DNA of 64,000 bases from Bacteroidia bacterium. Its GTDB lineage: Bacteria > Bacteroidota > Bacteroidia > 2-12-FULL-35-15. Made by a program: the position numbers and the translations under genes. The DNA lies in NCBI GenBank assembly GCA_039937835.1, contig JBDTFR010000022.1, positions 5,769-69,768 on the forward strand, given 5' to 3'. Positions 56,646 through 63,022 of this stretch are shown in pieces. Numbering within the stretch: the stretch's first letter is position 1; each line of letters starts with the position of its first letter. Under the pieces are notes generated by a model that had not been told where the DNA came from, did no database searches, and was given only the letters and a program-made list of their open reading frames with translations.

Positions 56646-57548
56646 TTGAAATTTGCAGCAATTGACATTGGTTCTAATGCATTACGATTATTGTTTTGCA
56701 ATGTATATGAAGAGGGGAATGGTAGTGTTTCTTTTAAAAAAGCAGAACTTATTCGAATTCCTTTACGATTGGGAGAAGACTCATTTCTGTTCGGTAAAAT
56801 TTCAGAAGAAAAAACAGAGAAACTCATCGCTTCCATACAAGCATTTAAACAATTAATTAAAATTAATGAGCCGCACAGTTATAGAGCATGCGCTACTTCT
56901 GCCATGCGCGATGCGTCCAATGGATCTGATATTATAAAACGTATTTATGCAGAAACAGGAGTAACCATTGAATTGATAGATGGTAAAACAGAAGCGAGCA
57001 CCATTTATGCAAATCACATTGAAAAGGACTTAAATAGTAAAACAGCTTATTTGTATATTGATATCGGTGGAGGTAGCACGGAGCTTACTTTATTTCATAA
57101 AAAAGAAATAATAGTCTCTCAATCGTTTAATATTGGTACCATACGTATGTTGCACAATCAAATTGATAAAGAGCAATGGAGCGCTTTTAAAAACTGGGTT
57201 GAAAAGAATACAAAAGAGCATAAGCCTATTATAGCAGTGGGCTCAGGTGGCAATATTAATAAGCTTTTTAAAATGTCGGGTAAAAAGCCCAATAAAGCCA
57301 TTACCACCGTAAAGCTAAAAAGTTTGTATGAGCTATTGGCTTCCTACACGTATGAAGAACGCATTAAAATTTTAGCACTCAATCCCGATAGAGCAGATGT
57401 AATTATACCCGCCTCTAAAATTTTACTTACCATTTTAAAAAAAGCAAACATAGAAAAAACCATTGTGCCTCAAATTGGTTTGGCAGATGGAATTGTACAC
57501 CAACTTTATGAATCGTATTTGAAAGAAAAAGAATTGAAAGTGGTTTAA
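56646..57548 (+). CDS. ppx: Exopolyphosphatase / Ppx-GppA family phosphatase (TTG start)
   Basis: AAIDIGSNALRLL actin-like ATPase-fold N-terminus. 13 bp after the ppk stop. The ORF opens with TTG. Confidence 0.85.
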   Translation: MKFAAIDIGSNALRLLFCNVYEEGNGSVSFKKAELIRIPLRLGEDSFLFGKISEEKTEKLIASIQAFKQLIKINEPHSYRACATSAMRDASNGSDIIKRIYAETGVTIELIDGKTEASTIYANHIEKDLNSKTAYLYIDIGGGSTELTLFHKKEIIVSQSFNIGTIRMLHNQIDKEQWSAFKNWVEKNTKEHKPIIAVGSGGNINKLFKMSGKKPNKAITTVKLKSLYELLASYTYEERIKILALNPDRADVIIPASKILLTILKKANIEKTIVPQIGLADGIVHQLYESYLKEKELKVV

Positions 57549-57765
57549 ACTTTCTTTTGTTAGGGCTCAGTTATAAAAATATTAAAGCAATTAAATTAAG
57601 ATTGATTTACTAAATTTGAGGTAGAGATATAATGCGGGTATGTGTAATACATTTATTCGCATGTTATCGGCAACCCTATGACGTTTGAACAGACCAAACA
57701 AGTAAAGAAAAGAAAACACTTAACAACAGACAAAAAATATAACTTTAGCAAATAATTATACGACA

Positions 57766-59154
57766 ATGAAAATAAATTCATTTACAGCAGAAGGGGTTCA
57801 CGACTACTTAAAATTTGACATAAAGTTTTTTCCAGACTTGACTTTTCTTATAGGAATAAATGGTTCAGGTAAAACAAGTGCCCTCAAACTAATTTTGGGA
57901 TTAACATCACCTTCTTACCAATATTTAAATCAATTGAATTATCAGTTTTGCGAAGTTATTTGCAGTAGCAAAAAAGACGAAAAAGATATTGTTCTAAGAG
58001 CAGAACAAAATAAGGCAGACAACACATTTACATTCAGCATAACTCGGAATGGCATTAAGGTTAGTTCCGAACCAATAAAGAGGTTTTCTCGTGGTGAAAA
58101 TATTCAATATGACTTTGAGGAGTTATCGCAAATCGAACAAAGACACAAAGAATCATTTGATGAATTAGAGGTAACACGAAAAATAAGAGAATTAGCTACA
58201 CCTAAATTTTTGGGGTTAGACAGAAGAATCTATGAAGGAGTAAATGCTGACTTTAGATTTAGAAACAGGAGACATCAACAATTTATAAATCCTAAATACC
58301 GTAATAGGAGATATGACGGCTTTCCAGAGCCACAAGCAATTGATTTAAGTCTTGAAGAAGTTCAAATGTTTGTTTTTGATTTTATAAGACAAATTCCTCA
58401 ACAACAATTTCAAATAAGCGATGAATTCAAGGAAAAATTATTTAAGGAATCCTTTAAATTCTACGAAGACTCTACAGTTGGAAAAATCCCCCCCACATCA
58501 GAAATTATCGAAAGAAAAGAAAAGGTTCTAAAAGCAATAGAAGATTTAGGTATTAAATATATCAATTACTCAATTAACGATTTCTTTAGCAAGATTGAAA
58601 AGATTGCCAAGGAATTCGAAAAGATTGACAAAAAAGAAAAGGAAAATATGCTTTCTCCACAGTATCGTGAAATAATTAGTCAATGGTATCTAAATGGAAA
58701 CCAACTTAAACGAATTGATGATATTATTACTTATAGCCAAGAGTATCAAAAGAAAATTATAGAATTAAAGGCACCACTTAAGAAATTGGAAGAACTTACC
58801 TCAAACTTTTTAGGAGAAGGAAAAAAAGTTCTACGAACTGAAACCGATGGTGAATTAAAAATAAAGTTGAAGAATGGACATTCAGCAAATATTTATGAAT
58901 TGTCTTCAGGTGAAAAGCAAATTATTATAATGATTGCTCATTTAATTTTCGAAGAAGCACAGAAGACTTCGGGCATATTTATTATTGATGAGCCTGAACT
59001 TTCTTTACATATTGCTTGGCAAGAGATATTTGTTCAGTCAATAATGCAAGCAAGCCCTAACACACAATTTATTCTGGCGACACATTCTCCTTCAATTATT
59101 GCTAAAGTTGACAAGGAAAAACATTGCCAAGATTTAAACAAATTTAATTTCTAA
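57766..59154 (+). CDS. AAA15/AAA21-type ABC ATPase (SMC/RecF-like) of a two-gene defence module; AriA/OLD-ATPase-like
   Basis: Walker A GINGSGKTSALK at residue ~30. About 330 aa of helical/coiled-coil insertion, then the ABC signature LSSGEKQ, Walker B IFIIDEPELSLH, the D-loop and H-loop ATHSP. 462 aa. Confidence 0.8.
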   Translation: MKINSFTAEGVHDYLKFDIKFFPDLTFLIGINGSGKTSALKLILGLTSPSYQYLNQLNYQFCEVICSSKKDEKDIVLRAEQNKADNTFTFSITRNGIKVSSEPIKRFSRGENIQYDFEELSQIEQRHKESFDELEVTRKIRELATPKFLGLDRRIYEGVNADFRFRNRRHQQFINPKYRNRRYDGFPEPQAIDLSLEEVQMFVFDFIRQIPQQQFQISDEFKEKLFKESFKFYEDSTVGKIPPTSEIIERKEKVLKAIEDLGIKYINYSINDFFSKIEKIAKEFEKIDKKEKENMLSPQYREIISQWYLNGNQLKRIDDIITYSQEYQKKIIELKAPLKKLEELTSNFLGEGKKVLRTETDGELKIKLKNGHSANIYELSSGEKQIIIMIAHLIFEEAQKTSGIFIIDEPELSLHIAWQEIFVQSIMQASPNTQFILATHSPSIIAKVDKEKHCQDLNKFNF

Positions 59155-59157
59155 ATT

Positions 59158-59997
59158 ATGCTTGAATTAAGTGACGAGCCAAAAAGATTGGTATCAACAT
59201 TTTTGACTTACCGCAACGAAATTGATATTTATACCGAAGATGAATTGAAGGACAAAGAATTTTATAAAGTTCTTTTTAGCAGACTTCTTGAAAATAAAAT
59301 AAATATAAATGACATAACTCCTTTGGGAGCGAGAAAAAACGTAATAAAAAGATGTGAAACGGAACCGGATAATGGTAGGAAAAAGATATTTATTATTGAC
59401 GGTGATGTAACTATAATACACGGCAAAAACATTCCAGCTCTTAAAAATCTTTTCGTTTTAGACGCATATTGTATTGAGAATTTTGTTATTGACGAACAAA
59501 GCGTTCTTAATTTTATTTACTTGAATTGTGCCTCTAAACCAAAGGAAGAAATTGCGAACGAATTAAAATTTGAAAATTGGTTAAATGGCTATTCCAATAA
59601 TCTTGTTGACCTTTTTATTCATTTTGGTATAACTGATTTCTTTGGTGGGAAGTTCAAACTATTCAACGCACATAAATTTCACCCGAAGGAAAACTATTCC
59701 GAAGAAATAGTAGAACAAGACATTGTAAAATTGAAGGCTGAAATCTTACTTCTTACTACTCAAGAAAACTATGAACTCAAATATGAGGAGCTAAAAAATC
59801 AATGGACAAATTGTGTTTCAAGTTTAATGACAATTGTATCAGGTAAGGACTACTTAATTCCTATTTTATTATTTAAAACACAATGCTACAAAAAATCAAA
59901 AGCAATGCCGACAGTTGAAGAAGCTAAATTTATGCTCGCTCAAAATTGTAATCTTGACCGACTCTCAAAACTGAAAGAGGCAATTGAAGCACTTTGA
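59158..59997 (+). CDS. DUF4435/TOPRIM-like (OLD-family nuclease-like) partner of the ATPase; AriB-like effector candidate
   Basis: Starts 4 bp after the ATPase stop. Conserved acidic residues in the spacing expected for a TOPRIM fold: Glu in IDIYTEDE (about aa 25-28) and DxD in KIFIIDGD (about aa 78-82). 279 aa. The domain call was made by eye and was not confirmed with an HMM search. Confidence 0.55.
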   Translation: MLELSDEPKRLVSTFLTYRNEIDIYTEDELKDKEFYKVLFSRLLENKININDITPLGARKNVIKRCETEPDNGRKKIFIIDGDVTIIHGKNIPALKNLFVLDAYCIENFVIDEQSVLNFIYLNCASKPKEEIANELKFENWLNGYSNNLVDLFIHFGITDFFGGKFKLFNAHKFHPKENYSEEIVEQDIVKLKAEILLLTTQENYELKYEELKNQWTNCVSSLMTIVSGKDYLIPILLFKTQCYKKSKAMPTVEEAKFMLAQNCNLDRLSKLKEAIEAL

Positions 59998-60756
59998 ACG
60001 TAATAAACCAAATTAGGACTGATAGAAGGGCAGCCGATAACAGCACCTATAAAAAATTGGCGGTTCAGTGGTTAAATGAAGTTTTGTTCTTCGTATCAAG
60101 TTTAGTGGTGGCAGACAGTTTATTGCTTCGAAATCGCCAACTTCTTATAGCTGCCAAAACGTGTGTGTCTTGAATCAGCAACGCATCTGAGTTGTTGAAT
60201 GCTATTTAAAAGATGGAAGACAAAAATGTGAAGGATAAATAATGTAGTGGAGCTCAAGCGAAATGAGTGGCCGTGCAACCAAACAAATTTGAGTGGCCTT
60301 CCAAAGACGGCTGTCAAGAGCAGTCTTTAAACCACCTGATGCTGCATTAAGAGGAAACTATTTTTGTGGTGAACGATTAGGAAAAACAGGAACACGTATT
60401 CCTGTAGGTGCATATATAGGAGCTGAATAAAATGAACTACCTATTAAGCCTCGTAAGCGCAATAGACAGAGCCGAAAACAGATAGCTACGTTTGTATTTG
60501 TGATAAGGGTGTAATGGACGACTTGATTGCTGATTACATGGCTCTCGGGGTAAAGGTAGCAGGAACTATATACAGGCTTTTAAATGGAACAAGAGAAATC
60601 GATACTGCGCTATTAAATTGTAAAAAGGAGCTAGCCATACAATGGATGTATGAAGTATCGGTGGCAGACCAGCTTGTAGTAGTGATAAAGTTACTGAAAG
60701 GTAATGGAGCGAAGAGGCTGGCTAGTTTAACTTTATAAAATGCACAACCGAAAGGG

Positions 60757-61980
60757 ATGATTGATTATTATGAAGTAAAATCACAGCCAATCACCAGGCT
60801 AATGGTTTGGCAGGCATACAGGAAAGTTAGAGCCAACAAAGGAAGTGCTGGCATAGATAATATGAGTTGGGAGTATTTAGACAACAATCTAAACACTGAA
60901 TTATACAAACTATGGAACAGAATGACCTCAGGCAGCTACTTTCCTCAAGCCGTTAAAGAAGTTAGCATTAAGAAAACAGACGGAGGGGAAAGAAAACTAG
61001 GAATTCCTACCTTGCTGGACCGTATAGCACAAGAAGTGGTAAAATCATATTTAGAGCCATTAGTAGAACCAATATTTCATCACAGTAGCTTTGGTTATCG
61101 ACCTAAAAGAAGCAGTCATGATGCAATTGCTCAATCGTGCAAGAATTGTTTCGGACATGATTTTGTGATAGATCTAGACATCAAAAGTTTCTTCGACATG
61201 ATGGATCATGAATTGATGATAAAATCAGTTGCTAACTATTGCAAAGAAAAATGGGTAATACTATACATCACTAGATGGTTAAAAGCAGGTATAGTGCAAA
61301 AAGAGGTTGGCTACGTAGATAGGTTAACAGGTACTCCGCAAGGCGGCGTAATAAGCCCTTTAATAGCCAATTTGTTTATGCATATTAGTTTTGATAAATG
61401 GATGGATAAATATCATTCAGAAAAGCCATTCGAACGTTATGCAGATGATATAGTGGTGCATTGCAAAACAGAGAAACAAGCGCTATTTATGTTAAGACAA
61501 ATAGAGCAACGCTTGACAAAACGCAAACTAGAGTTGCATCCCATTAAAACAAAAATTGTTAACTTACGAGGATCTGCAGTTGCAAACTATAGTAAGTCTT
61601 ACGACTTTCTTGGGTTTACAATACAACCTCACTGGTGCAAGATTAAGGGCAAAGGGATGCTACTTCCAAGTATTTTTATAAGCAAGAAATCTGAAAAGCG
61701 AATATTGTACAAATTTAAATCTATGCAAATACACAAACGGCGCAAACCAATAGAATTGCTAGCAAAAGAATTACGGCCAATTGTTCAAGGCATCATCAAC
61801 TATTATGGTAAATTTTCGACAGGACATCTAAGATTTTTGTGCCATCAAATAAATGTGCGCTTACTTAAATGGGTGAAATGGGAAAAGGGACTATACAAGA
61901 TGAAAGCTTTACAATGGCTAAGAGGAAAATTTCAATCCAACCGAAAACTTTTCCCACACTGGTTATTGGTAAATCCATAA
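60757..61980 (+). CDS. ltrA: Group II intron reverse transcriptase/maturase (RT domains 0-7 + X/thumb, no En domain)
   Basis: 407 aa. RT motifs: QAYRKVRANKGSAGIDNMSWEY (RT0/1), FGYRPKRSSHDA (RT2), GTPQGGVISPLIANLFM (RT4), RYADDIVVH (the YADD catalytic box). The maturase X region ends the protein, with no HNH or Zn domain. Confidence 0.9.
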   Translation: MIDYYEVKSQPITRLMVWQAYRKVRANKGSAGIDNMSWEYLDNNLNTELYKLWNRMTSGSYFPQAVKEVSIKKTDGGERKLGIPTLLDRIAQEVVKSYLEPLVEPIFHHSSFGYRPKRSSHDAIAQSCKNCFGHDFVIDLDIKSFFDMMDHELMIKSVANYCKEKWVILYITRWLKAGIVQKEVGYVDRLTGTPQGGVISPLIANLFMHISFDKWMDKYHSEKPFERYADDIVVHCKTEKQALFMLRQIEQRLTKRKLELHPIKTKIVNLRGSAVANYSKSYDFLGFTIQPHWCKIKGKGMLLPSIFISKKSEKRILYKFKSMQIHKRRKPIELLAKELRPIVQGIINYYGKFSTGHLRFLCHQINVRLLKWVKWEKGLYKMKALQWLRGKFQSNRKLFPHWLLVNP

Positions 61981-62010
61981 CTAATAAATACATTCGTGAT
62001 TGAACTAGAA

Positions 62011-62044
62011 GAGCCGTGTGAAGGGAGACTTTCAAGCACGGTTC
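62011..62044 (+). ncRNA. Group II intron catalytic domain V
   Basis: 34-nt hairpin matching the DV consensus GAGCCGUAUGCGAUGAAAGUCGCACGUACGGUUC, including the AGC triad and the G-U pair. Confidence 0.85.
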
Positions 62045-62102
62045 CGTGGGAACGGAAGGGTGAAACTCCCTTGCGTGACCCGATTAGGGAGCAATATGTG
62101 AT

Positions 62103-62127
62103 GGTCTACACAAAAGACCTTTTTTTA
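62103..62127 (+). terminator. Rho-independent terminator immediately 3' of the intron
   Basis: GGTCT-ACACAAA-AGACC followed by TTTTTTT. Confidence 0.55.
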
Positions 62128-62163
62128 TTTGGAGATGGTTGTCTGATTAGTTAACTTTGTGCT

Positions 62164-62511
62164 GTGAGTTTCGAACGACAAGTAATAGCTTATAAAAAAT
62201 ATTTTCTAGACTTTTATAAGGAACAGTCTGGTAACGTTCAGGCGAAAATTGAGTGGACGTTGGAGTTAATAAGGGTAAATAAACAGATTCCTGAGAAATA
62301 TTTTAAACATATGGCCGGGACGAAAGGACTCTATGAAGTTAGAGTTGAAGTCGGAAGTAATATTTTTAGAATTTTTGCATTCTTCGATAAAGGGAATTTG
62401 GTTGTATTAGGGAACGCTTTTCAAAAGAAAACTCAAAAGACCCCTAAACTTGAAATTGAAAAGGCACTTAAAATAATGGAGGAATATAATTATGAAAAAA
62501 ATAGCAAGTAA
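62164..62511 (+). CDS. higB: HigB-like / Gp49 (PF05973-like) RelE/ParE-superfamily type II toxin (GTG start)
   Basis: GLYEVRVEVGSNIFRIFAFFDKGNLVVLGNAFQKKTQKTPKLEIEKALK is the hallmark block of the phage-related HigB/Gp49 toxin family. The ORF opens with GTG. Confidence 0.75.
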   Translation: MSFERQVIAYKKYFLDFYKEQSGNVQAKIEWTLELIRVNKQIPEKYFKHMAGTKGLYEVRVEVGSNIFRIFAFFDKGNLVVLGNAFQKKTQKTPKLEIEKALKIMEEYNYEKNSK

Positions 62512-62800
62512 AAATATCACGACCTTAGACGAGATTCTTGACAAGAAATACGGAAAGAAAGGCGCTCCGAAACGTGAAAAATGGGAACAAGAGTTTGAAG
62601 CATTTCGACTCGGTGCATTACTTGAAGAAGCGCGCTTGAAAATGGGTTTAACACAAGAGGAACTCGCTGAAAAATGTGGAACAAATAAATCATATATTTC
62701 CCGCATCGAGAATAATGCATCAGACATAAGACTTTCCACACTTATGAAAATTATTCAGCAAGGCCTCGGTGGTCATTTAAAGCTAACACTTCAACTTTAG
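62492..62800 (+). CDS. higA: XRE-family HTH antitoxin (HigA-like)
   Basis: Overlaps the toxin gene by 20 bp. HTH in LTQEELAEKCGTNKSYISRIENN. 102 aa. Toxin-first gene order, as in higBA. Confidence 0.75.
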   Translation: MKKIASKNITTLDEILDKKYGKKGAPKREKWEQEFEAFRLGALLEEARLKMGLTQEELAEKCGTNKSYISRIENNASDIRLSTLMKIIQQGLGGHLKLTLQL

Positions 62801-63022
62801 TTTAAAAATAGCACATACCCGTAGCATCGATTTTACATATTGGCGAGCTAATCGCTTCGTATGAAACTAATCAGTAAATTTGAATGCTGTGTTTAGTAGT
62901 AGACCTATTCCTAAAACACGCCACTATGCAAAGCCCAGTTCGTTCGGCGTAATAAAAAAACGAAACCCGAGAAATAGTTTGAGTATATACTATTAATATA
63001 TACCTTTGTAGAAAATAGCATT

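What the first reader, a model, noticed from the sequence alone, without database searches (positions are those of the whole stretch)
60161..62100. Complete group IIC-like intron (RT/maturase without En domain) inserted just downstream of a hairpin, inside the defence island
Seen: GTGTG 5' end, 4 nt after an inverted repeat (TGGCAG ... CTGCCA). A ~600-nt GC-rich structured leader follows, then a 407-aa RT with YADD and an X domain but no HNH. A textbook domain V sits 30 nt after the ORF stop. Total length is about 1.9 kb. Established: class C introns are about 1.9 kb, En-less, and target motifs after terminator-like stem-loops. The exact 3' splice site could not be fixed by eye. The 74-aa track ORF at 60514-60738 lies within domains I-III and is almost certainly not a gene. 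An intact intron implies a recently active retroelement and marks this locus as a hotspot.
Basis: partly seen in the sequence, partly recalled or inferred. Interest (0 to 1): 0.6.

Follow-up and report, generated by a model that had tools for sequence, protein, structure and literature searches.

The report
Class D intron in attC-like site
The finding is a real, complete group II intron, but it is a class D (RmInt1-type) intron rather than a IIC one, and it sits in the recombination hairpin of an integron-like gene-cassette array, a target that essentially every copy of its large Bacteroidota lineage shares.

Summary
The intron is real and looks intact. It spans 60163-62084 (1,922 nt), starting 2 nt later than reported. 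It has a 5' GUGUG, a domain I match to Rfam RF01999, and a 407-aa RT/maturase with YADD and no endonuclease domain. Domain V is 62011-62044, the domain VI branch A is 62078, and the 3' end reads ...ACCCGAU.

The class call is wrong. Domain V is 34 nt with an AGC triad, and EBS1-IBS1 can form 6 bp. The RT is 44-46% identical to a published class D intron and only 32-36% identical to true IIC RTs.

The upstream "hairpin" is a conserved 138-nt imperfect hairpin with strong covariation, not a terminator. It follows cassette ORFs in tandem arrays. The sequence after each element (GT|TNNNNNNN) is the reverse complement of the 5' box (..NNNNNNNAAC) of the next element, which is the integron-cassette signature. 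Arrays begin next to a Xer/IntI-like recombinase that lacks the IntI insertion.

The lineage inserts at GT|T of these sites: 36 of 53 copies by the element model, and 16 of the other 17 also end in CGT. It lies in the sense orientation, unlike IIC-attC introns. The flanking cassettes are PARIS (AriA/AriB) upstream and a toxin-antitoxin pair downstream. The RT gene is already annotated at NCBI. I found no description of the target specificity.

The parts
57663..57672 (+). Start of cassette 1 (GT|TATCGGCA). It is the reverse complement of the 5' box of the cassette's own element at 60032-60041.
   Evidence: 9 of 10 match to the reverse complement of AGCCGATAAC. It lies about 115 nt after the ppx gene.
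57766..59997 (+). Cargo of cassette 1: AriA-like AAA ATPase (57766-59154) and AriB-like DUF4435 protein (59158-59997), the gene pair of a PARIS-type defence system.
   Evidence: Pfam AAA_15/AAA_21 and DUF4435. PADLOC AriA 94 bits and AriB 71 bits.
60024..60162 (+). attC-like element: a 138-nt imperfect hairpin directly after the AriB stop codon. Its 5' box CCGATAAC is at 60034-60041. It ends in AAAACGT, and the 5' exon ends here.
   Evidence: CM R1 152 bits and R2 141.5 bits. Covariation: 89% of cells paired against 35-45% when partners are slid, and 21 of 24 pairs with compensatory changes.
60157..60162 (+). IBS1 (AAACGT), the last 6 nt of the 5' exon.
   Evidence: Complementary to the invariant EBS1. 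Occupied and empty sites all end (A/C)CGT.
60163..62084 (+). Complete group II intron, 1,922 nt, class D-type (IIB-like). 5' end GUGUGUCUUGAA, 3' end ...GUGACCCGAU.
60291..60409 (+). Domain I segment matching Rfam RF01999.
   Evidence: 68.6 bits against a gathering score of 36. The same family hits the published class D intron at 121 bits.
60488..60493 (+). EBS1 (ACGUUU) in the hairpin loop UACGUUUG.
   Evidence: TTACGTTTG is invariant or nearly so in 26 aligned introns. The predicted hairpin presents it in the loop.
60514..60738 (+). 74-aa ORF inside the ribozyme (domains II-IV region). It is not a gene.
   Evidence: No Pfam hit. No conserved + strand ORF at this place in relatives. The aligned region has indels that are not multiples of three.
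60757..61980 (+). Intron-encoded RT/maturase, 407 aa, with RT and X domains and no D/En domain. YADD codons at 61438-61449.
   Evidence: TIGR04416 380 bits. RVT_1 and GIIM. The start ATGATTGATTAT is conserved in relatives. 100% identical to an NCBI-annotated protein that starts at Met16.
62011..62044 (+). Domain V: 34 nt, AGC triad, 5-bp distal stem, GAGA loop.
   Evidence: RF00029 alignment and fold.
62045..62084 (+). Domain VI with the bulged branch-point A at 62078 (position -7). The 3' end is AU.
   Evidence: RF00029 alignment. The MFE fold leaves G62077 and A62078 bulged.
62085..62943 (+). Cassette 2. It starts T|AGGGAGC, completing GT|T across the intron. It carries a Gp49/HigB-like toxin (62164-62511) and an HTH antitoxin (62492-62800), and ends with a degenerate element at 62808-62943.
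   Evidence: Pfam Gp49 and HTH_3. CM R2 24.9 bits, E 0.003.
62103..62127 (+). Terminator-like hairpin plus a T run, 19 nt downstream of the intron.

Best explanation
Window 60163-62084 is an intact bacterial class D (RmInt1-type, IIB-like) group II intron retroelement.

It belongs to a large Bacteroidota lineage that homes, in the sense orientation, into one position: between GT and T at the 3' end of a ~138-nt attC-like hairpin. That hairpin terminates each cassette of an integron-like gene-cassette array.

Shown by the sequence data:
- the intron anatomy;
- the affinity of its RT and RNA to class D;
- the hairpin's covariation;
- the tandem [ORF(s) + element] arrays;
- the circular-permutation signature of the cassettes;
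- the start of arrays next to a Xer/IntI-like tyrosine recombinase;
- the near-exclusive presence of intron copies at these sites.

Inferred mechanism:
- The array is transcribed through the intron, and the RT/maturase is translated from the precursor.
- The intron splices and rejoins ...AAAACGU|UAGGG.
- The resulting RNP reverse-splices into the top (cassette-sense) DNA strand. It finds the site through EBS1 pairing with the conserved unpaired tail AAA(A/C)CGT and through the first exon nucleotide T. The adjacent hairpin possibly contributes, either as a structure or as a marker of single-stranded DNA.
- Because the RT has no endonuclease, cDNA synthesis would be primed by nascent DNA at a replication fork, as established for RmInt1 and other En-less introns (PMC4424553).

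At the DNA level the insertion splits the GTT box. It should therefore impair recombinase action at this junction, between the PARIS cassette and the toxin-antitoxin cassette.
For: Intron:
- Rfam RF01999 and RF00029, TIGR04416 at 380 bits and the domain V/VI fold.

Boundaries:
- 26 relatives start GTGTG(T/A)C after CGT, and 34 empty sites read CGT|T.
- The sequence after the intron matches the next element's box 7/7 in L030, L005 and L053.

Class:
- The best plasmid hits are 43-47% identical.
- The top-ranked hit NC_013792.1 is listed as class D 'D152' in PMC3552965 Table S1.
- blastp scores are 340-345 bits to the class D group, 162-169 to class C, 163 to g3/F and 132 to g1. CL and ML RTs score 115 bits.
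- RF01999 is shared with the class D anchor, whereas Ni.ha.I1 (g3/F) hits RF02003.
- The class D relatives have the same 34-nt AGC domain V.

Element:
- 12 of 24 pairs show compensatory changes in 12 sequences.
- In 59 sequences, 89% of cells are paired and the covariation score is 0.646, against 0.05-0.10 with slid partners.
- There are 75 hits in the 80 intron loci, 74 of them on the intron's strand.

Arrays and cassette signature:
- ORFs end 2-30 nt before elements.
- 30 of 40 adjacent pairs reach at least 6/7 identity. Shuffled partners give 2.2 on average, with a maximum of 7 in 2,000 shuffles.

Recombinase:
- In loci fetched only through the recombinase, 18 of the 37 with at least 1.5 kb downstream carry elements downstream on the same strand. 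None of those 40 elements holds an intron.
- In 15 of 21 loci the first cassette start lies 22-212 nt after the recombinase stop codon.

Specificity:
- 36 of 53 intron 5' ends abut a model hit exactly, and 16 of the other 17 also end in CGT with element-like tails.
Against: - No splicing, mobility or recombination was observed. Everything here is comparative.
- The class D assignment rests on one published anchor and on pairwise scores. Classes E, A and B were not compared directly, and 44-46% identity leaves room for a sister lineage.
- No EBS2-IBS2 pairing was found (best candidate in 11 of 26 sequences), although RmInt1-type introns have one.
- EBS1 and IBS1 are both invariant, so no covariation supports that pairing.
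- The recombinase lacks the IntI-specific insertion: TIGR02249 scores 223 bits against a cutoff of 265, in two stretches.
- The window has no recombinase gene.
- Only one strong element and one degenerate element are present in the window.
- The two strands of the element fold about equally well, so the active strand cannot be told.
- The elements used to build the model came from intron-bearing loci, which biases the model towards intron-associated variants.
Confidence: 0.8

Rival explanations
1. One reading: a group IIC (class C) intron that inserted after a terminator-like stem-loop, as IIC introns do, with little sequence specificity.
For: - The intron is En-less, about 1.9 kb, and lies a few nucleotides after a hairpin.
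- The best solved-structure matches are IIC RTs (6ar1 at 161.8 bits, 7uim at 158 bits).
- The 3' end ACCCGAU matches 7 of 10 positions of the class C consensus CCUACYCGAU (PMC4028801).
- No EBS2-IBS2 pairing was detected.
Against: - Domain V has AGC rather than CGC, and a 5-bp distal stem.
- EBS1-IBS1 can form up to 6 bp.
- The 5' end matches only 8 of the 13 specified positions of the class C consensus.
- The RT is 32-36% identical to IIC RTs but 44-46% identical to a published class D intron.
- The PDB holds no class D RT, which explains why IIC RTs come out as the best solved matches.
- The hairpin has no T run and spans 138 nt.
- Insertion is strictly site-specific, at CGT|T.
Confidence: 0.05
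2. The 138-nt element is a transcribed RNA element that happens to be the intron's homing site, for example a 3'-UTR stabiliser, an attenuator or a small RNA. On this reading it is not a DNA recombination site, and the arrays arose by duplication.
For: - The element always lies just after stop codons, on the coding strand.
- Covariation cannot distinguish RNA from single-stranded DNA (the same caveat is made in PMC5737381).
- The central loop is unusually conserved across families.
Against: - The 7-10 nt after one element match the reverse complement of the next element's 5' box in 30 of 40 cases. An RNA-only role does not explain this, whereas circular cassettes recombining at GTT predict it.
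- Cassette contents are unrelated between neighbours.
- Arrays start at a fixed distance from a tyrosine recombinase gene.
- No Rfam family matches the element.
Confidence: 0.1
3. The element is part of the intron itself, as a 5' extension or leader, so the true intron starts near 60024.
For: The element is directly upstream of the intron in most loci and is well conserved.
Against: - There are 34 intron-free copies in the intron loci and 40 of 40 intron-free copies next to recombinase genes.
- The closest introns (L001 and L004, about 80% DNA identity) lose similarity upstream of 60153-60158.
- A canonical GUGUG lies exactly at the junction.
Confidence: 0.01
4. The copy is a dead relic: it looks intact but no longer splices or moves.
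For: - It is the only copy in the window.
- The nearest relative is 80% identical and sits in another genome.
- A terminator-like hairpin follows the intron.
Against: - The 407-aa ORF is uninterrupted, with YADD and the X domain.
- The window copy carries every ribozyme position that is invariant across the 26 aligned introns.
- Domains V and VI and the EBS1-IBS1 pairing are intact.
Confidence: 0.15

Closest known systems
Bacterial class D group II introns (RmInt1 of Sinorhizobium meliloti; the Bacillus/Alkalihalophilus pseudofirmus pBpOF4-01 intron 'D152')
   Same: - The RT/maturase has no D/En domain and is about 410-420 aa, and the intron is about 1.87-1.92 kb.
- The RT is 44-46% identical to the published class D member and its kin.
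- Both match Rfam RF01999 in domain I and have a 34-nt AGC domain V with a GAGA loop.
- Both start 5' GUGUG.
   Different: - RmInt1 homes into an insertion sequence (ISRm2011-2) and, from my own knowledge, uses EBS1, EBS2 and EBS3. Here no EBS2-IBS2 pairing was found.
- The target here is the single-stranded tail of a conserved hairpin recombination site.
- This is a separate Bacteroidota clade, with 56-80% RT identity within it.
Group IIC-attC introns (S.ma.I2 of Serratia marcescens and relatives)
   Same: It is a dedicated intron lineage that inserts into the recombination hairpins of gene-cassette arrays, just 3' of the stem-loop on the strand it enters. It has no endonuclease (PMC3001079, PMC4424553).
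   Different: - IIC-attC introns are a monophyletic subset of class C with IIC ribozymes. They insert into the bottom strand, opposite to cassette transcription (PMC3001079).
- This intron has a class D-type RT and ribozyme. It lies on the cassette-sense strand, so it can be spliced out of cassette transcripts.
UHB.I2, a IIB1/CL1 intron found right after an attC site in a hypersaline metagenome (PMC7923331)
   Same: [quoted passage not shown]
   Different: UHB.I2 is a single case of another class (CL1), with poor exon conservation among its relatives. Here 52 of 53 examined copies of a whole lineage end on CGT at element-like sites, 36 of them at model hits.
Integron attC sites and cassette arrays (for example Vibrio VCRs in sedentary chromosomal integrons)
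   Same: - Imperfect hairpins of about 125-138 nt, bounded by ...AAC and GTT... boxes.
- One hairpin after each cassette, in co-oriented tandem arrays.
- The cassette start is complementary to the 5' box of the cassette's own site.
- The cargo is rich in toxin-antitoxin and defence genes.
- A tyrosine recombinase sits at one end.
   Different: - The recombinase lacks the IntI-specific insertion (below the TIGR02249 cutoff), has a long N-terminal extension, and is co-oriented with the cassettes.
- The central loop of the hairpin is conserved across bacterial families.
- IntegronFinder surveys report almost no integrons in Bacteroidetes (PMC9024848).

Membership tests
Group II intron (any class) | 5' GUGYG and 3' AY boundaries | tested here: met
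   GUGUG at 60163-60167 and ...GAU at 62082-62084. The boundaries are fixed by 26 relatives, 34 empty sites and post-intron cassette starts.
Group II intron (any class) | Domain V hairpin with catalytic triad and 2-nt bulge; domain VI with a bulged A 7-8 nt from the 3' end | tested here: met
   RF00029 at 58.3 bits against a gathering score of 40. AGC triad. A62078 is bulged at position -7.
Group II intron (any class) | RT/maturase ORF in domain IV | tested here: met
   TIGR04416 at 380 bits against a cutoff of 300. RVT_1 and GIIM.
Group II intron (any class) | EBS1-IBS1 pairing with the 5' exon | tested here: met
   ACGUUU (60488-60493) pairs with AAACGU (60157-60162), 6 bp. Both are invariant across the family, so conservation supports the pairing but covariation cannot.
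Group II intron (any class) | Self- or maturase-assisted splicing and retromobility | not testable with these tools
   This needs RNA data or experiments.
Group IIC / bacterial class C | Domain V distal stem 2 bp shorter than in IIA/IIB, and CGC instead of AGC (PMC1702495) | tested here: not met
   Domain V is 34 nt with a 5-bp distal stem, a GAGA loop and AGC.
Group IIC / bacterial class C | IBS1-EBS1 of only 3-4 bp, and no EBS2 (PMC1702495) | tested here: inconclusive
   EBS1-IBS1 can form 6 bp at AAAACGU sites, but only 3 contiguous bp at AAACCGU sites. No EBS2-IBS2 pairing was detected (at most 11 of 26 sequences).
Group IIC / bacterial class C | Class-specific ends 5' GUNYGCCNRGCAUGG and CCUACYCGAU 3' (PMC4028801) | tested here: not met
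   5' GUGUGUCUUGAAUCA matches 8 of the 13 specified positions. 3' GUGACCCGAU matches 7 of 10.
Group IIC / bacterial class C | RT groups with class C RTs | tested here: not met
   36% and 32% identity (169 and 162 bits) to GsI-IIC and E.r. IIC, which are 46% identical to each other. Identity to the class D group is 44-46% (340-345 bits).
Group IIC-attC introns | Inserted in the bottom strand of attC, opposite to cassette transcription (PMC3001079) | tested here: not met
   The intron is on the same strand as the flanking cassette ORFs and as all but one element-model hit (74 of 75) in the 80 intron loci.
Bacterial class D introns | RT closest to recognised class D members | tested here: met
   The top-ranked plasmid hit is the class D intron NC_013792.1 52005-50133C (PMC3552965 Table S1). 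It scores 46% and 340 bits, against at most 169 bits for classes C, g3/F, g1, CL and ML. Classes A, B and E were not compared.
Bacterial class D introns | RT-X protein without D/En domain; intron about 1.85-1.9 kb | tested here: met
   The RT is 407 aa with RVT_1 and GIIM only. The intron is 1,922 nt. Published class D examples are 1,865-1,904 nt with RTs of 410-430 aa.
Bacterial class D introns | Class D-specific C-terminal signature of the maturase, and tree placement with a full reference set | not tested
   Reference alignments are not available in these tools.
Integron (attC sites, cassettes, IntI) | Imperfect hairpin sites bounded by ...AAC / GTT..., one per cassette, in co-oriented arrays | tested here: met
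Integron (attC sites, cassettes, IntI) | Cassettes are circularly permuted units: the sequence after the GTT crossover pairs with the 5' box of the cassette's own site | tested here: met
   30 of 40 pairs reach at least 6/7 identity, against 2.2 expected and a maximum of 7 in 2,000 shuffles. In the window, 57663 GTTATCGGCA matches AGCCGATAAC at 60032-60041.
Integron (attC sites, cassettes, IntI) | IntI integrase with the integron-specific insertion in the catalytic domain | tested here: not met
   The array-associated recombinase (L128:2076-3734) scores 223 bits on TIGR02249 against a cutoff of 265, in two stretches. The distance from KDR to HxLRH is 62-74 aa, against about 104 aa in IntI1 as I recall its sequence. 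It passes NF040815 at 222.8 against a cutoff of 220.
Integron (attC sites, cassettes, IntI) | Recombinase-catalysed excision and integration of cassettes through a folded single strand | not testable with these tools
   This needs experiments. Strand-specific folding energies were uninformative.

The most novel reading that the evidence does not exclude
Many Bacteroidota may carry a so far unrecognised integron-type gene-capture system. Its parts would be:
- a Xer/IntI-like tyrosine recombinase without the IntI insertion, co-oriented with the array;
- an attI-like site 22-212 nt after the recombinase stop codon;
- attC-like hairpins of 125-138 nt;
- cassettes carrying defence systems such as PARIS, and toxin-antitoxin pairs.

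A whole lineage of class D group II introns would then have specialised on the GT|T of these sites in the sense orientation. That would be an independent, convergent counterpart of the IIC-attC introns. Because it is spliced from cassette transcripts, it could also take part in building or fusing cassettes.
Probability: 0.45. Interest if true: 0.8.

Novelty: new variant of a known kind. Interest (0 to 1): 0.62.

Why it matters
Attachment of group II introns to integron recombination sites has been treated as a speciality of one IIC sub-lineage, always on the bottom strand. One paper reports isolated IIB cases.

Here a different class shows the same life-style across dozens of Bacteroidota genomes, on the opposite strand. 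This suggests that cassette hairpins are a recurrent safe harbour for endonuclease-less retroelements.

The work also exposes cassette arrays, with their recombinase and an attI-like site, in a phylum where integron surveys report almost none. Those arrays carry anti-phage systems.

For annotation, the practical lessons are:
- 'En-less, 1.9 kb, after a hairpin' does not mean IIC.
- The 138-nt element delimits mobile cassettes.
- The RT start codon in the public record is probably 15 codons too far downstream.

Tried and rejected
- Exact look-up of the annotated RT (P0001) in the contig index found nothing, so the rest of the source contig could not be read.
- I looked for an integron integrase with an IntI1 sequence recalled from memory. 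There was no hit in the window. The hits in L018, L011 and L029 turned out to be Xer-like recombinases paired with IS91-family transposases. I dropped them as the array recombinase in favour of the L022-type enzyme.
- I suspected that the upstream element was a remnant of another intron copy, because its frame translation resembles that of 60600-60700. blastn found no significant similarity and the idea was abandoned.
- Rfam at a permissive threshold found no known family for the element. It is therefore not, for instance, the DUF1874 motif discussed as a possible attC in PMC5737381.
- I compared top- and bottom-strand folding energies and G-T against A-C mismatches to find the active strand. 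The result was not informative (-19.5 against -20.2 kcal/mol), and the pair counts are biased by how the model was built.
- A systematic search for an EBS2-IBS2 pairing gave no convincing candidate.
- The IIC-attC target-site papers PMC2714756 and PMC1871835 are not held. The exact IIC-attC insertion point could not be compared.
- Size alone could not separate IIC from class D, so I did not use it.
Full report
**What is at the coordinates**

A scan of the whole window against Rfam gives two hits above the gathering scores. RF01999 (group-II-D1D4-2) matches 60291-60409 at 68.6 bits. RF00029 (domains V and VI) matches 62009-62084 at 58.3 bits. Between them lies a 407-aa ORF, 60757-61980. It carries Pfam RVT_1 and GIIM and nothing else. 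It scores 380 bits on NCBIfam TIGR04416, 'group II intron reverse transcriptase/maturase', whose cutoff is 300. Retron and DRT models score 73 bits or less. The YADD codons are at 61438-61449, and domain V (62011-62044) begins 30 nt after the stop codon. A protein 100% identical but starting at Met16 is already annotated at NCBI as a group II intron RT from a Bacteroidia MAG, on a 75-kb contig. The intron is therefore real, and its protein is not new to the databases.

**Boundaries**

A search of one genome per species returned 80 related loci, nearly all Bacteroidota, with RTs 56-80% identical. Twenty-six full 5' regions all begin GTGTG(T/A)C, immediately after an exon that ends CGT. Empty target sites read ...(A/C)CGT|T.... 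The window reads CGTGTGTGTC, so the intron starts at 60163, not 60161.

At the 3' end, the RF00029 alignment and the fold leave A62078 bulged at position -7, and the intron ends ...ACCCGAU at 62084. In L030, L005 and L053 the eight bases after the equivalent position, prefixed by the exon's GT, match the next cassette's box 7 of 7. That fixes the 3' splice site independently. The intron is 1,922 nt long.

The 74-aa ORF at 60514-60738 has no family match and no conserved counterpart in relatives.

**Class**

PMC1702495 defines IIC ribozymes by four traits: a domain V whose distal stem is 2 bp shorter, CGC in place of AGC, an IBS1-EBS1 of 3-4 bp, and no EBS2.

- Here domain V is 34 nt, GAGCCGUG-U-GAAGG-GAGA-CUUUC-AAG-CACGGUUC, with AGC and a 5-bp distal stem.
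- The loop UACGUUUG (60487-60494) is invariant in the family. Its ACGUUU can pair with the last six exon bases, AAACGU.
- The class C boundary consensus in PMC4028801 is matched at 8 of 13 specified positions at the 5' end and 7 of 10 at the 3' end.
- The solved RTs that match best are IIC (6ar1 at 161.8 bits). However, the PDB has no class D, E or F representative.
- Against plasmid records the best matches are 43-47% identical.
- The top-ranked hit, NC_013792.1 at 50.1-52.0 kb, is listed as class D ('D152', 414 aa, 1,873 nt) in Table S1 of PMC3552965. That table also lists RmInt1 (419 aa, 1,884 nt) and three Bacteroidetes introns.

In direct blastp comparisons the window RT scores as follows:

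| Reference | Identity | Bits |
|---|---|---|
| Class D group (L081-L083) | 44-46% | 340-345 |
| GsI-IIC (class C) | 36% | 169 |
| E.r. IIC (class C) | 32% | 162 |
| Ni.ha.I1 (g3/F) | 30% | 163 |
| Sr.me.I2 (g1) | 29% | 132 |

The class D anchor and its kin hit the same Rfam family RF01999 at 113-121 bits, and they have the same 34-nt AGC domain V. Ni.ha.I1 hits RF02003 instead. I therefore file the intron as class D-type (IIB-like). One reservation remains: classes A, B and E were not compared, and no tree was built.

**The hairpin upstream is a conserved element, not a terminator**

blastn showed that 60030-60160 is conserved directly upstream of the intron in many genomes, and that it also occurs without an intron. 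An alignment of 12 copies folds into a long imperfect hairpin in which 12 of 24 pairs show compensatory changes.

A covariance model built from this alignment finds 75 copies in the 80 loci, 74 of them on the intron's strand. On 59 aligned copies, 89% of cells are paired, against 35-45% when partners are slid. Twenty-one of 24 pairs change on both sides, and the covariation score is 0.646 against 0.05-0.10. That alignment was fitted to the model, which favours the structure somewhat.

No Rfam family matches the element.

**The element delimits mobile cassettes**

Elements sit 2-30 nt after the stop codons of + strand ORFs and form tandem arrays of one to three ORFs plus an element. The bases that follow an element (GT|TAGCGGCT...) are the reverse complement of the 5' box (...AGCCGCTAAC) of the next element downstream.

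Over 40 adjacent pairs, 30 have at least 6 of 7 variable positions identical. Shuffled partners give 2.2 such pairs on average, and never more than 7 in 2,000 shuffles. This is what integron cassettes look like: a circular unit opened at the GTT of its recombination site.

In the window, cassette 1 starts at 57663 (GTTATCGGCA) and ends with the element whose box is AGCCGATAAC. It carries an AriA/AriB pair, that is, a PARIS-type defence system. Cassette 2 starts with the T at 62085, carries a Gp49/HigB-like toxin and an HTH antitoxin, and ends in a degenerate element at 62808-62943 (R2 24.9 bits, E 0.003). A MazE/MazF-like pair follows.

**A recombinase at the head of the arrays**

The window has no tyrosine recombinase. 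Upstream are ppx, ppk, a HerA-like gene and mfd. In L022, however, a Xer/IntI-like recombinase ends 22 nt before the first cassette start.

I used its C-terminal 157 residues to fetch 80 metagenomic loci. Eighteen of the 37 loci with at least 1.5 kb of downstream sequence have elements downstream on the same strand, up to five in a row. None of those 40 elements holds an intron. In 15 of 21 such loci, the first cassette start matches the first element's box at 9-10 of 10 positions and lies 22-212 nt after the recombinase stop. It is preceded by a non-hairpin sequence that often contains CGTATAYA.

A full-length example (553 aa) scores 223 bits on the integron-integrase model TIGR02249, below the 265 cutoff and in two stretches. 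It just passes NF040815, 'site-specific tyrosine recombinase/integron integrase'. It lacks the IntI-specific insertion. The arrays are therefore integron-like, not canonical integrons. IntegronFinder surveys report almost no integrons in Bacteroidetes, though a review lists the phylum among those with integrons.

**Target specificity and likely mechanism**

Of 53 intron 5' ends with enough upstream sequence, 36 abut a model hit exactly. Sixteen of the other 17 also end in CGT after element-like tails. The stem sequence varies and covaries among occupied sites, while the tail AAA(A/C)CGT and the +1 T are constant. No EBS2-IBS2 pairing was found.

The following steps are inferred, not shown:
- The intron is transcribed with the cassettes and splices out.
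- It then reverse-splices into the cassette-sense DNA strand at the unpaired tail, through EBS1 and the +1 base. The hairpin may mark or expose single-stranded DNA.
- Because the RT has no endonuclease, priming would come from replication, as described for En-less introns.

The insertion splits the GTT box, so it should interfere with recombination at this junction.

Known IIC-attC introns do the converse: they enter the bottom strand and oppose cassette transcription. One IIB1 intron in the sense orientation after an attC site has been reported. My literature searches found no description of a class D lineage with this target.

**Verdict**

As an object, the finding is an ordinary intron with an already-annotated RT. 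Its class was mis-assigned and its start was 2 nt off.

What makes it worth a second look is its setting. It marks an attC-like site of an integron-like cassette array in Bacteroidota, and it belongs to a class D lineage that appears dedicated to those sites. 'Recently active' and 'hotspot' are plausible but not demonstrated. The copy is intact, but it is single in the window.

Noticed in passing
window 57766-59997: The cassette upstream of the intron encodes an AriA-like ATPase and an AriB-like DUF4435 protein, a PARIS-type anti-phage system. A fused 684-aa AAA/DUF4435 protein is the first cassette of an unrelated array (L142:7152-9206).
   Followed up: partly
window 62808-62943: A degenerate copy of the 138-nt element lies right after the HTH antitoxin gene. 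Its 5' box reads TAGC instead of TAAC. It ends ...TTCGT|TCGGCG. It looks like a decaying cassette boundary.
   Followed up: partly
window 62103-62127: A terminator-like hairpin (GGTCT-ACACAAA-AGACC) plus T7 lies 19 nt after the 3' splice site, ahead of the toxin gene. It would stop read-through from the intron into cassette 2.
   Followed up: no
window 60757 vs 60802: The public annotation starts the RT at Met16 (392 aa). The upstream ATGATTGATTAT is conserved in all 26 aligned relatives, so the 407-aa form is more likely.
   Followed up: partly
L018:238-2091, L029:141-2065, L011:563-1504: Xer-like recombinase genes, paired with IS91-family transposase genes in L018 and probably L029, lie about 200 nt before an element, or before the intron's 5' end in L011. 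Elements in L018, L029, L002 and L010 share the 5' flank CCGAAGGTTTWGTTCAAC. The GTTC in the box might be an IS91-type target.
   Followed up: partly
L032:5345-6112: This looks like an ORF-less derivative of the same intron, about 770 nt. It has the 5' end, domain I pieces and domains V/VI, but no RT. It lies downstream of a full copy.
   Followed up: no
L022:476-497, L086, L100, L095, L128 and others: The sequence between the recombinase stop and the first cassette start often contains CGTATAYA a few bases before the GT|T junction. This is a candidate attI-like site. The window has a similar GCGGGTATGTGTAATAC stretch before 57663, although it has no recombinase gene.
   Followed up: partly
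L152 and L135: In two recombinase loci the elements lie on the opposite strand to the recombinase, and in L152 they lie on both sides of it. Not every array follows the co-oriented layout.
   Followed up: no
L020:1170-1245 and L014:23-99: A second domain V/VI lies upstream of the full intron in the same locus. Several intron copies can therefore occupy neighbouring cassette boundaries.
   Followed up: no
window 56904-57548: The ppx ORF as called (214 aa) matches only positions 67-281 of the Ppx-GppA profile. Either its start is upstream with a non-ATG codon, or the gene is truncated next to the array.
   Followed up: no
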